Position numbers: made by a program
Virus record (IMG/VR): IMGVR_UViG_2718218452_000012
Length of the DNA: 64,000 nucleotides
Direction: 5' to 3' (one strand)
Origin: a virus
Lineage: Duplodnaviria > Heunggongvirae > Uroviricota > Caudoviricetes
Part shown: positions 27,001-30,000 of the stretch, piece by piece
How the letters are laid out: every line of letters starts with the position of its first letter
How positions within the stretch are numbered: the first letter of the stretch is position 1

Positions 27001-30000
27001 GGATTTCGACACAATCATGGAAAAGGCTTACGAAGAATACTTCGAAGGCCTTGCCGAAGGCGAAGAAGCTCTCAGCTTCAGTGAGTTTAAACAGGCACTC
27101 AGAATAAGAATGTGCTCTCACAATGACGCGGAGCACAAATATGAGAAGCAAAATCAGACCGCAGAAAATTTTGTTCTGGAACCCGGAGAAACGCTTTTCA
27201 AAATTCCCGTTACGTGCCCCATTTGCGGTTTTACATCAGAAGAACTTGACGACTCCTGTAACAATCAGGAAACAACCAAGTATGTCGAAGATGATACCGA
27301 GTGCGCACGAAGAACGATTATATCCACGAGTCCAAACTCCAGGACCAATAAATCTCACTATGAGAGGGTGATTAATCCACTCCCCCAAACCAATAAAAAA
27401 GATGCCGGAGGACAAAAAACCCAATGGAACAACGGGATATCTGTCAAAAAAAGACGTTCCATTAAAGACAAACAACGCAGCGCCAACAACTGTAAGAGCT
27501 TTATACCAGTAATCAATTTTCATGTTCTTAAGCGGATTTATTGGTGGTTGCGACATTGCTTAATGAATCCTTAAAACTGTGGTGATTTTAAGGATACCAC
27601 CTCGCCTGACGTGGTTAAAAGCAGGCACACAACACGAAAGCGCACGGCGAAGTTCGTCTCACTGTACGGTGTCGTTAAATTTAATTCGACCGTGCGCTTC
27701 CGGTTGTGGCAACCCGCAAAATGGCGCGGCGGTAAGTATGGCGGGGTTATTCCTTCCCCGTTGAGGACACCGGGTTGTCAGGTTGACCATACGCTTAAGT
27801 GACAACCCCGCTGCAACGCCCTCTGTTATCAATTTTCTGGTGACGTTTGGCGGTATCAGTTTTACTCCGTGACTGCTCTGCCGCCCTTTTTAAAGTGAAT
27901 TTTGTGATGCGGTGAATACGGCTAAGCGCACGCGGAACAGTTAAAACCAAAAACAGTGTTATGGGTGGATTCTCTGTATCCGACGTTAATTGTTAACTGG
28001 TTAACGTCACCTGGAGGCACCAGGCACTGCATCACAAAATTCATTGTTGAGGACGCGATAATGAAAACGTTATTACCAAACGTTAATACGTCTGAAGGTT
28101 GTTTTGAAATTGGTGTCACTATCAGTAACCCTGTATTTACTGAAGATGCCATTAACAAGAGAAAACAAGAACGGGAGCTATTAAATAAAATATGCATTGT
28201 TTCAATGCTGGCTCGTTTACGTCTGATGCCAAAAGGATGTGCACAATGAATTCAGCATTTGCGCTTGTTCTGACAGTTTTTCTTGTTTCCGGAGTGCCAG
28301 TTGATATTGCAGTCAGTGTTCACAGGACAATGCAGGAGTGTATGACTGCAGCAACCGAACAGAAAATTCCCGGTAACTGTTACCCGGTCGATAAAGTTAT
28401 TCACCAGGATAATATCGAAATCCCGGCAGGTCTTTAAAACAGTTCCGTAATAAATATCCGGTTTCATTCTTATATGCCAGCAATGGCAGGGATTTGTTCA
28501 TCCTTAAATCTGTCATGAGGTTAAAACAAATGAGTAAAGTCTTTATTTGCGCCGCTATTCCTGACGAACTGGCAACAAGGGAAGAAGGCGCTGTGGCTGT
28601 AGCCACAGCCATTGAAGCTGGCGACGAACGCCGTGCTCGAGCAAAATTTCACTGGCAATTCCTGGAACATTATCCGGCTGCTCAGGACTGCGCTTATAAA
28701 TTTATTGTCTGCGAGGATAAACCTGGCATACCCCGCCCTGCCCTCGATTCATGGGATGCTGAATATATGCAGGAAAACCGCTGGGATGAGGAGTCTGCTT
28801 CTTTTGTCCCGGTTGAGACTGAATCCGATCCGATGAACGTCACTTTTGACAAGCTGGCCCCTGAAGTACAGAACGCTGTCATGGTTAAGTTCGACACATG
28901 TGAAAACATCACCGTTGATATGGTTATTAGCGCATGCGCTAATAACCATATCAACGGTGATGTTTTCACATGTGTCGAACTTAACCATGACAGCGTTCTG
29001 TACTTCAGGGGCCAGCTTGTCAAAAGTGACGTTCATCGGATCGGATTCAGTCTCAACCGGGACAAAAGAAGCAGACTCCTCATCCCAGCGGTTTTCCTGC
29101 ATATATTCAGCATCCCATGAATCGAGGGCAGGGCGGGGTATGCCAGGTTTATCCTCGCAGACAATAAATTTATAAGCGCAGTCCTGAGCAGCCGGATAAT
29201 GTTCCAGGAATTGCCAGTGAAATTTTGCTCGAGCACGGCGTTCGTCGCCAGCTTCAATGGCTGTGGCTACAGCCACAGCGCCTTCTTCCCTTGTTGCCAG
29301 TTCGTCAGGAATAGCGGCGCAAATAAAGACTTTACTCATTTGTTTTAACCTCATGACAGATTTAAGGATGAACAAATCCCTGCCATTGCTGGCATATAAG
29401 AATGAAACCGGATATTTATTACGGAACTGTTTTAAAGACCTGCCGGGATTTCGATATTATCCTGGTGAATAACTTTATCGACCGGGTAACAGTTACCGGG
29501 AATTTTCTGTTCGGTTGCTGCAGTCATACACTACTGCATTGTCCTGTGAACACTGACTGCAATATCAACTGGCTCTCCGGAAACAAGAAAAACTGTCAGA
29601 ACAAGCACAAATGCTGAATTCATTGTGCACATCCTTTTGGCATCAGACGTAAACGAGCCAGCATTGAAACAATGCATATTTTATTTAATAGCTCCCGTTC
29701 TTGTTTTCTCTTGTTAATGGCATCTTCAGTAAATACTGGGTTACTGATAGTGACACCAATTTCAAAACAACCTTCAGACGTATTAACGTTTGGTAATAAC
29801 GTTTTCATTATCGCGTCCTCAACAATGAATTTTGTGATGCAGTGCCTGGTGCCTCCAGGTGACGTTAACCAGTTAACAATTAACGCCGGATACAGAGAAT
29901 CCACCCATAACACTGTTTTTGGTTTTAACTGTTCCGCGTGCGCTCAGCCGCATTCACCACATCACAAAATTCACTTTAAAAAGGGCGGCAGAGCAGTCAC

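What the first reader, a model, noticed from the sequence alone, without database searches (positions are those of the whole stretch)
28337..29532. Perfect 1.2 kb spacer-less palindrome joining two dicB operons head-to-head inside ydfE
Positions x and 57869-x are exact reverse complements over 1196 bp, with the symmetry axis at 28934/28935 inside a ydfE-like ORF, so two dicF-dicB-ydfD-ydfE operons run into each other. Identity decays outward (first mismatch 28336/29533, near-identity to about 27680/30188). Long perfect palindromes are normally unstable in E. coli because of SbcCD cleavage, so this is either a recent fold-back inverted duplication or an assembly artefact.
Basis: seen in the sequence. 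Interest (0 to 1): 0.8.

Follow-up and report, generated by a model that had tools for sequence, protein, structure and literature searches.

The report
Misassembled palindrome joining two prophage copies
The 1.2 kb perfect palindrome is really in the deposited sequence, but it is almost certainly an assembly error near a contig end of one E. coli genome record, where second copies of two prophages were stitched head-to-head, and not a structure in the living cell.

Summary
Window 28337-29532 is an exact spacer-less palindrome with its axis at 28934/28935. It lies inside the 5' end of a recE/ydfE gene, and DicF-dicB-ydfD modules converge on it from both sides.

The window is E. coli strain C3 (NZ_CP010119.1), wrapped over the record's end. 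The axis lies 15.8 kb from that end. Only 1 of 5,426 complete E. coli genomes has this junction.

Both arms are exact second copies of DNA found elsewhere in the same record. Window 4973-28934 (23,962 bp) equals the rspA-linked Qin-like prophage. Window 28935-43252 (14,318 bp) equals the tRNA-Ser (serU) prophage. In both native copies the exonuclease gene is full length.

The axis sits in the middle of a 1,042-bp stretch where the two prophages are identical, with no microhomology and no natural mosaic boundary. The "perfect" span simply ends at the first natural SNP.

A second irregular strand flip (43252-43613) and a repeat-boundary record end (44703/44704) follow. sbcC and sbcD are intact, and a 460-bp perfect palindrome is already lethal in sbcCD+ E. 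coli (PMC4245961).

Best explanation: a fold-back chimeric molecule or read misled the assembler in a tangle of prophage repeats (confidence about 0.87). A real in vivo fold-back is not excluded without raw reads (about 0.07).

The parts
28337..29532 (.). Exact spacer-less palindrome, axis 28934/28935
   Evidence: Base-by-base test; the repeat finder I2/I3; single perfect hairpin on folding
27743..30126 (.). Near-perfect palindrome (about 99% complementary)
   Evidence: The mismatched pairs are the natural SNPs between the Qin-like and serU prophages
4973..28934 (+). Arm A block: 23,962 bp of Qin-like prophage (head, lysis, Q, relBE, hokD, replication, cI/cro-like, ydfA, DicF, dicB, ydfD, recE codons 1-135). 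It is an exact second copy of record 3458354-3482315 (minus strand)
   Evidence: String identity; blast. In the other copy recE is full length (2,472 bp) and is followed by xis, int and rspA'
28935..43252 (+). Arm B block: 14,318 bp of the serU-integrated lambdoid prophage, inverted (recE codons 135-1, ydfD with nonsense codon, dicB, DicF, ydfCBA, dicA, dicC, replication, SMEK/methyltransferase, hokD/sok, DUF968, rusA, Q, 3 tRNAs, first ~1.34 kb of nanS-p esterase). It is an exact second copy of record 4285415-4299732
   Evidence: String identity; blast. The native copy has full-length recE, xis, int, tRNA-Ser and mtfA. The same prophage is intact in strain C7 and 11 other genomes
27835..27886 (+). 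DicF sRNA, arm A
   Evidence: Rfam RF00039, 76.7 bits
29983..30034 (-). DicF sRNA, arm B
   Evidence: Rfam RF00039, 76.7 bits
28061..28437 (+). dicB (28061-28249) and ydfD (28246-28437), arm A
   Evidence: RefSeq annotation of the record; ORFs
29432..29808 (-). ydfD with internal stop (29432-29623) and dicB (29620-29808), arm B
   Evidence: The same nonsense allele is in the native serU prophage of C3 and C7
28530..28934 (+). First 135 codons of recE/ydfE-type exonuclease, arm A, cut at the axis
   Evidence: identical to K-12 ydfE up to the axis
28935..29339 (-). First 135 codons of recE/ydfE-type exonuclease, arm B, cut at the same nucleotide
28932..28937 (.). SphI site GCATGC created by the junction and absent from the native sequence; a diagnostic marker
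   Evidence: Sequence read
43252..43612 (+). 361-bp piece of the lambda-like (ybhC) prophage (265 bp upstream plus the first 96 bp of its nanS-p), inverted relative to the adjoining lambda-like DNA. This is the second irregular strand-flip junction
   Evidence: Equals the reverse complement of OkiPb01675 L010 18641-19001, while 43613 onward equals L010 19001 onward in forward orientation
43613..44703 (+). Last 1,091 bp of the record. They are 100% identical to another prophage ('U') of the same record, and that identity stops exactly at the record end/start (44703/44704)
   Evidence: Strain C7's record starts within one base of the same point

Best explanation
The palindrome is an artefact of the strain C3 assembly, not a chromosomal structure.

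The strain carries at least five lambdoid prophages that share 1-25 kb blocks at 99-100% identity. Near one end of the assembled contig, the assembly path runs through the Qin-like prophage from ydfJ as far as codon 135 of its recE/ydfE gene. There it flips strand and runs back out through a different prophage, the serU one. It flips irregularly again inside nanS-p and ends in a short stretch of repeat sequence.

Both stretches are used a second time: each is also present in native, intact form elsewhere in the record.

The most likely trigger is a fold-back (palindromic) chimeric molecule or read whose turn-round point happened to lie in a 1,042-bp segment identical in the two prophages. The assembler could then leave the fold-back along the 'wrong' prophage, and consensus polishing would restore each arm's own SNPs.

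Shown: the duplication, the uniqueness of the junction, the position near the contig end, the lack of any homology-based route to the junction, and intact sbcCD. Inferred: the chimeric read and the sequencing platform.
For: (1) Only 1 of 5,426 complete E. coli genomes has the junction, while 4,239 have the half sequence. The junction 36-mer is absent from JGI metagenome contigs and IMG/VR, whereas the native junction is in at least 120 IMG/VR contigs and is contiguous in 3,850 E. coli records.

(2) Both arms are exact second copies of DNA in the same record: 23,962 bp and 14,318 bp with 0 differences. The native copies have full-length recE plus xis and int, at rspA' and at tRNA-Ser.

(3) The sister strain C7 and other strains have both prophages intact and no palindrome.

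(4) The axis is 15.8 kb from the record end. The last 1,091 bp equal another prophage of the record, with identity breaking exactly at the record end, so the end is a raw contig end at a repeat boundary. C7's record starts within 1 base of the same point.

(5) A second irregular flip with a 361-bp inverted piece lies at 43252-43613.

(6) Both arms stop at the same base in the middle of a 1,042-bp exact repeat, with no microhomology and no natural boundary. This is the signature of a single folded-back molecule.

(7) sbcD and sbcC are full length. A 460-bp perfect palindrome in the E. coli chromosome is lethal with SbcCD even in recombination-proficient cells (PMC4245961).

Against: No raw reads, read depth or assembly-method information could be obtained, so the chimeric read is inferred and was not seen. 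Exact identity of the duplicated blocks is also what a very recent real duplication would give. The record is an accepted RefSeq 'complete genome'. A simple undetected-adapter read would be expected to leave an adapter-sized spacer, and none is present.
Confidence: 0.87

Rival explanations
1. A real, recent in vivo rearrangement. A break in recE of one prophage was converted to a hairpin-capped end and replicated into a fold-back. This was then resolved by homologous recombination with the other prophage within the shared dicB-recE module, possibly only in a subpopulation or in induced phage DNA.
For: Both arms end at the same base, as a hairpin-derived junction requires. Inverted chromosome duplications centred on hairpins have been observed in E. 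coli (PMC3315005). The record as deposited is a closed circle in which all prophage ends are paired.
Against: In E. coli such duplications were seen only without SbcCD and RecA, and C3 has intact sbcCD. A perfect palindrome less than half this size is lethal in sbcCD+ cells. The model needs two illegitimate strand flips plus zero-divergence duplication of 24 kb and 14 kb from loci 1.9 Mb and 1.0 Mb away. The junction is unique among 5,426 genomes and lies next to a contig end with further irregular joins.
Confidence: 0.07
2. An artefact of finishing rather than of a read: two contigs, each ending inside the shared recE repeat, were concatenated head-to-head during scaffolding or circularisation.
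For: The record ends are raw contig ends at a repeat boundary, and C3 and C7 start within 1 base of each other. 38 kb of the terminal region duplicates other parts of the record, like unmerged contig overlaps.
Against: Two independent contigs would have to stop at exactly the same nucleotide. That nucleotide is in the middle of a 1,042-bp exact repeat and is not a boundary in 3,850 other records. Overlap-based merging cannot create a reverse-complement join.
Confidence: 0.04
3. An ordinary chromosomal inversion by homologous recombination between two inversely oriented prophages.
For: These strains carry many near-identical lambdoid prophages. Other prophage junctions in C3 and C7 look like homologous exchanges; for example, the 98% to 100% identity gradient at window 4024-4972.
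Against: Recombination between inverted repeats keeps the repeat's internal orientation and yields intact hybrid genes. It cannot produce a gene running into its own reverse complement at one nucleotide (geometry). The two recE genes are also in direct orientation in the record.
Confidence: 0.01

Closest known systems
Fold-back (palindromic) chimeric long reads and contig-end misassemblies in repeat-rich bacterial genomes
   Same: A junction unique to one assembly. A strand flip at an arbitrary base with no spacer and no microhomology. Flanking DNA that also exists in native context in the same assembly. A position in a tangle of prophage repeats 15.8 kb from a raw contig end.
   Different: The two arms are not the same molecule read twice: the path leaves the fold-back along a second, 99%-similar prophage. 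No adapter-sized spacer is present. The platform and reads are unknown.
Hairpin-derived inverted chromosome duplications at palindromes in E. coli (Darmon et al. 2010, PMC3315005)
   Same: A symmetric, spacer-less head-to-head junction, as expected from replication of a hairpin-capped end.
   Different: Those arise at a pre-existing palindrome, in sbcCD recA mutants, and duplicate the adjacent chromosome arm. Here there is no pre-existing inverted repeat at the axis, sbcCD is intact, and the arms belong to different loci.
Engineered perfect and interrupted palindromes in the E. coli chromosome (Azeroglu et al. 2014, PMC4245961)
   Same: A perfect palindrome without spacer in the chromosome of an sbcCD+ strain.
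   Different: The 460-bp engineered palindrome kills sbcCD+ cells. The one in this record is 1,196 bp perfect (2.4 kb near-perfect), yet it is reported in a wild isolate, which argues that it does not exist in vivo.
Qin prophage dicB operon of E. coli K-12 (dicA/dicC-ydfABC-dicF-dicB-ydfD-ydfE)
   Same: Each arm carries DicF, dicB, ydfD and the recE/ydfE 5' end. The arm next to the axis is 100% identical to K-12 over 600 bp.
   Different: In K-12, ydfE is cut by IS2 at 768 bp. In the native C3 copies the gene is a full-length 2,472-bp exonuclease. In the window both copies stop at codon 135.

Membership tests
Assembly artefact (chimeric fold-back join in repeats) | Junction absent from independent assemblies of the same or related genomes | tested here: met
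   1 of 5,426 genomes; absent in sister strain C7; 0 hits in metagenome and viral contigs, with a positive control for the native junction
Assembly artefact (chimeric fold-back join in repeats) | DNA on both sides of the junction also present in native, uninterrupted context in the same assembly | tested here: met
   23,962 bp and 14,318 bp exact second copies; native copies have full-length recE, xis and int
Assembly artefact (chimeric fold-back join in repeats) | Located at or near contig ends or repeat boundaries, with other irregular joins nearby | tested here: met
   15.8 kb from the record end; the record end is at a repeat boundary; second flip with a 361-bp inverted piece
Assembly artefact (chimeric fold-back join in repeats) | No genuine reads span the junction; read depth over the duplicated blocks is halved | not testable with these tools
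   No raw reads available. The chimeric ORF is not in the protein/contig collection, and no paper describes the assembly
In vivo hairpin-derived inverted duplication | Symmetric spacer-less junction | tested here: met
In vivo hairpin-derived inverted duplication | Both arms are copies of the same adjacent chromosomal segment over the whole duplicated length | tested here: not met
   The arms diverge after 598 bp (SNPs) and 1.26 kb (unrelated sequence), and they match two different prophages
In vivo hairpin-derived inverted duplication | Arises and persists when SbcCD (and RecA) are absent | tested here: not met
   sbcD (400 aa) and sbcC (1,047 aa) are full length and pass the equivalog cut-offs. 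recA was not examined. Requirement taken from PMC3315005 and PMC4245961
Tandem inversion duplication (Salmonella lac system; recalled from memory, not read here) | Junctions at short quasi-palindromes, with a central inverted copy of the same locus as its flanks | tested here: not met
   No inverted repeat or microhomology at the axis in the native sequence; the nearest are GCGC 1 nt off the axis and CACATGTG 40 nt away. The central block is from a different locus
Inversion by homologous recombination between prophages | The repeat keeps its internal orientation across the junction and hybrid genes stay intact | tested here: not met
   recE runs into its own reverse complement at codon 135
Qin-type dicB operon | DicF RNA followed by dicB, ydfD and ydfE/recE 5' end | tested here: met
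   Rfam DicF on both arms; DicB WP_000854559.1 on both arms; ydfD; recE'; 100% identical to K-12 over 600 bp

The most novel reading that the evidence does not exclude
The palindrome is real in strain C3. A wild, sbcCD-intact cattle E. coli would then stably carry a 1.2 kb perfect (2.4 kb near-perfect) spacer-less palindrome. It would have been created by a fold-back at a break in a prophage recE gene and resolved by recombination with a second prophage, as part of a 38 kb inverted insertion of prophage copies.
Probability: 0.06. Interest if true: 0.7.

Novelty: not a real feature. Interest (0 to 1): 0.1.

Why it matters
The result is mainly a warning. A RefSeq "complete genome" (NZ_CP010119.1) appears to carry about 38 kb of spurious prophage duplication, a false palindrome, two false recE pseudogenes and an extra dicF-dicB-ydfD module. 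These would distort prophage counts, dicB/DicF copy numbers, synteny and inversion analyses, and any survey of long palindromes.

If the structure were real, it would contradict the experimentally shown lethality of long perfect palindromes in sbcCD+ E. coli. That is why it deserved a check.

Tried and rejected
(1) Microhomology or a short inverted repeat at the axis in the native sequence: none. The K-12 and native copies continue ...TTAGCGCA|CAGGAATT, with 0 shared bases after the axis.

(2) The axis as the point where the two recE alleles diverge (an assembly-graph branch): rejected. They are identical from -598 to +443.

(3) The axis as a natural mosaic or truncation boundary of recE in the species: rejected. 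3,850 of 3,979 records are contiguous across it, and K-12's IS2 cut lies 362 bp further on.

(4) Recurrence of the junction elsewhere: none in metagenome or IMG/VR contigs.

(5) Look-up of the chimeric 196-aa ORF in public assemblies, including read-level assemblies: not on record.

(6) Literature on the C3/C7 assemblies (accession and assembly numbers): nothing on methods.

(7) Reconstructing the true chromosome order of C3 from prophage ends. This was only partly done. The record pairs ydfJ' with ybhC, rspA' with ssrA, and probably serU with ybhB. I could not decide which of these links are real inversions and which are misjoins.

(8) The 39,547-bp size difference between C3 and C7 is close to the size of the suspect block (38.3-39.4 kb). 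However, the two records differ elsewhere too, so I do not use this as evidence.

Full report
**Observation.**
A base-by-base test shows that window positions x and 57869-x are exact reverse complements from 28337 to 29532, which is 1,196 bp with no spacer. The first mismatched pair is 28336/29533. The repeat finder reports arms 27743-28934 and 28935-30126 at 99% complementarity with 0 nt between them. After a 1-bp register shift, about 94% identity runs to 27670/30200. Beyond that the arms are unrelated, apart from further homologous blocks at 26764-27099 vs 30653-30988 (96%) and 24086-26065 vs 31670-33649 (94%). The central 400 nt fold as one perfect hairpin (z = -56). Rfam finds DicF on both arms (27835-27886 +, 29983-30034 -). 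The ORFs and the RefSeq annotation give dicB, ydfD and the first 135 codons of a recE/ydfE-type exonuclease on each side.

**Where the window comes from.**
The window is identical to E. coli strain C3 (cow) chromosome NZ_CP010119.1, positions 5,304,880-5,349,582 followed by 1-19,297. It therefore wraps over the record's end, which falls at window 44703/44704. The axis lies 15,769 bp before the record end.

**Uniqueness.**
Of 5,426 complete E. coli genomes, 4,239 contain the half sequence, but only this record contains the palindrome. The 36-mer across the axis is absent from JGI metagenome contigs and from IMG/VR. The native, unflipped 36-mer occurs in at least 120 IMG/VR contigs.

**Both arms are second copies.**
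- Arm A continues leftwards as a Qin-like prophage attached to ydfJ'. Window 4973-28934 (23,962 bp) is identical, base for base, to record 3,458,354-3,482,315. In that other copy the exonuclease gene is full length (2,472 bp) and is followed by xis, int and rspA'.
- Arm B, window 28935-43252 (14,318 bp), is identical to record 4,285,415-4,299,732. That region is a lambdoid prophage integrated at tRNA-Ser next to mtfA, again with a full-length exonuclease, xis and int.
- The same serU prophage is intact in sister strain C7 and in 11 other genomes at 99.4-99.9% identity. It carries the same ydfD nonsense allele that makes the first mismatch of the palindrome.
- Strain OkiPb01675 has a single colinear Qin-like prophage running from ydfJ' to the arm-A end.

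**Why the perfect part is 1,196 bp.**
The two full-length recE regions of C3 are identical from 598 bp before the axis to 443 bp after it. The perfect span is therefore twice the distance to the first natural SNP. It says nothing about the age of the junction.

**The axis itself.**
- The axis is in the middle of that 1,042-bp identical block.
- The native sequence continues ...TTAGCGCA|CAGGAATT and shares no bases with the flipped continuation.
- The position is not a natural boundary. 3,850 of 3,979 E. coli records with this gene are contiguous across it.
- Two independent ends would not stop at the same nucleotide by chance, and homologous recombination cannot turn a gene into its own reverse complement. 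The junction therefore has the geometry of one folded-back molecule, formed either in the cell or in the library.

**Surroundings.**
- Arm B ends inside nanS-p at 43252-43256.
- Next comes a 361-bp piece of the lambda-like (ybhC) prophage in inverted orientation (43252-43612).
- From 43613 the lambda-like region runs in the opposite direction.
- The last 1,091 bp of the record (43613-44703) are 100% identical to yet another prophage ("U") of the same record, and that identity stops exactly at the record end.
- Strain C7's record starts within one base of the same point, and its last 13 kb equal its own U copy.
- The record ends thus look like raw contig ends at a repeat boundary. The terminal ~40 kb of the C3 record is a chain of prophage repeats joined by two irregular strand flips.

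**Biological plausibility.**
sbcD (400 aa) and sbcC (1,047 aa) are intact in C3 and match the SbcD and SbcC equivalog models end to end. Azeroglu et al. showed that a 460-bp perfect palindrome in the E. coli chromosome is cleaved on both sister chromosomes by SbcCD and kills even recombination-proficient cells (PMC4245961). Darmon et al. saw hairpin-derived inverted chromosome duplications only without SbcCD and RecA (PMC3315005). A 1.2 kb perfect, 2.4 kb near-perfect palindrome should therefore not be maintainable in this strain.

**Interpretation.**
The most economical account is a misassembly. A fold-back chimeric read or molecule turned round at an arbitrary base inside a segment shared by two prophages, so the assembler could exit along the other prophage. 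The path then continued through repeats to a contig end. [quoted passage not shown] The sequencing platform and the reads for C3 are unknown to me, so this step is inferred. I give the artefact 0.87 in this form, plus 0.04 for a finishing or concatenation variant. A real in vivo fold-back followed by recombination gets 0.07. It would need two illegitimate flips, zero-divergence duplication of 24 kb and 14 kb from distant loci, and tolerance of a lethal structure. Plain inversion by homologous recombination is excluded by geometry (0.01).

**Limits.**
I could not obtain reads, read depth or assembly methods. I did not fully resolve which of the other re-paired prophage ends in C3 are real: rspA' with ssrA, probably serU with ybhB, and ydfJ' with ybhC. 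The decisive test is read mapping across the axis, or a Southern blot using the SphI site that the junction creates at 28932-28937.

Noticed in passing
window 43252-43613: A second non-homologous strand flip. The arm-B nanS-p stops at about bp 1343. It is followed by a 361-bp piece of the lambda-like prophage in inverted orientation, and then by the lambda-like prophage running the other way. Position 43613 is also where the nanS-containing and nanS-lacking prophage variants diverge.
   Followed up: yes
window 44703/44704 (record end/start of NZ_CP010119.1): The last 1,091 bp of the record are identical to prophage 'U' at record 4.606 Mb, and that identity ends exactly at the record end. Strain C7's record starts within 1 base of the same point, and its last 13 kb are an exact copy of its own 4,990,693-5,003,729. 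Both 'complete' records seem to begin and end at raw contig ends inside prophage repeats.
   Followed up: partly
window 1-4972 versus record 3,482,316-3,490,288: Identity to the other Qin-like copy rises from 98% (tail genes), through a divergent patch (4024-4195) and 14 SNPs (4198-4972), to 100%. This looks like a homologous crossover or an assembler switch. That other copy ends at ssrA instead of ydfJ'.
   Followed up: partly
whole record (loci L002, L006, L007, L009, L012): Relative to K-12 gene order, the C3 record pairs ydfJ' with ybhC and rspA' with ssrA, and its serU prophage carries late genes of the type found in the attλ prophage of strain C7. So all four prophage end pairs are re-paired. 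These are either real prophage-mediated rearrangements or further misjoins.
   Followed up: partly
window 29531-29533 (arm B ydfD): The ydfD of the serU prophage has a nonsense codon after 48 aa of the listed ORF. The same allele is in C3's native copy, in C7 and in other strains, so it is a natural variant and not an assembly error.
   Followed up: yes
window 33965-36540: Between the replication genes and hokD/sok, arm B carries a 299-aa SMEK-domain protein followed, on the opposite strand, by a class I SAM-dependent methyltransferase and a hypothetical protein. This is a possible accessory or defence-like cargo island.
   Followed up: no
window 37114-37288, 40584-40830, 41604-41776: Rfam finds sok antitoxin RNA next to hokD, three tRNA genes (annotated Ile, Arg, Arg) downstream of Q, and an STnc100 sRNA match just upstream of nanS-p in arm B.
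   Followed up: no
window 22652-23992: A truncated ISEsa1-family transposase sits between the Qin-like replication genes and flxA. It is at the same place in many other E. coli genomes, so it is an old insertion.
   Followed up: partly
window 45983-46942 and 52139-53352: The lambda-like prophage at ybhC carries an lpxR (lipid A deacylase) gene on the opposite strand between the nin-region phosphatase gene and ylcG/Q, and an IS3-family element inserted between cII and cro.
   Followed up: no
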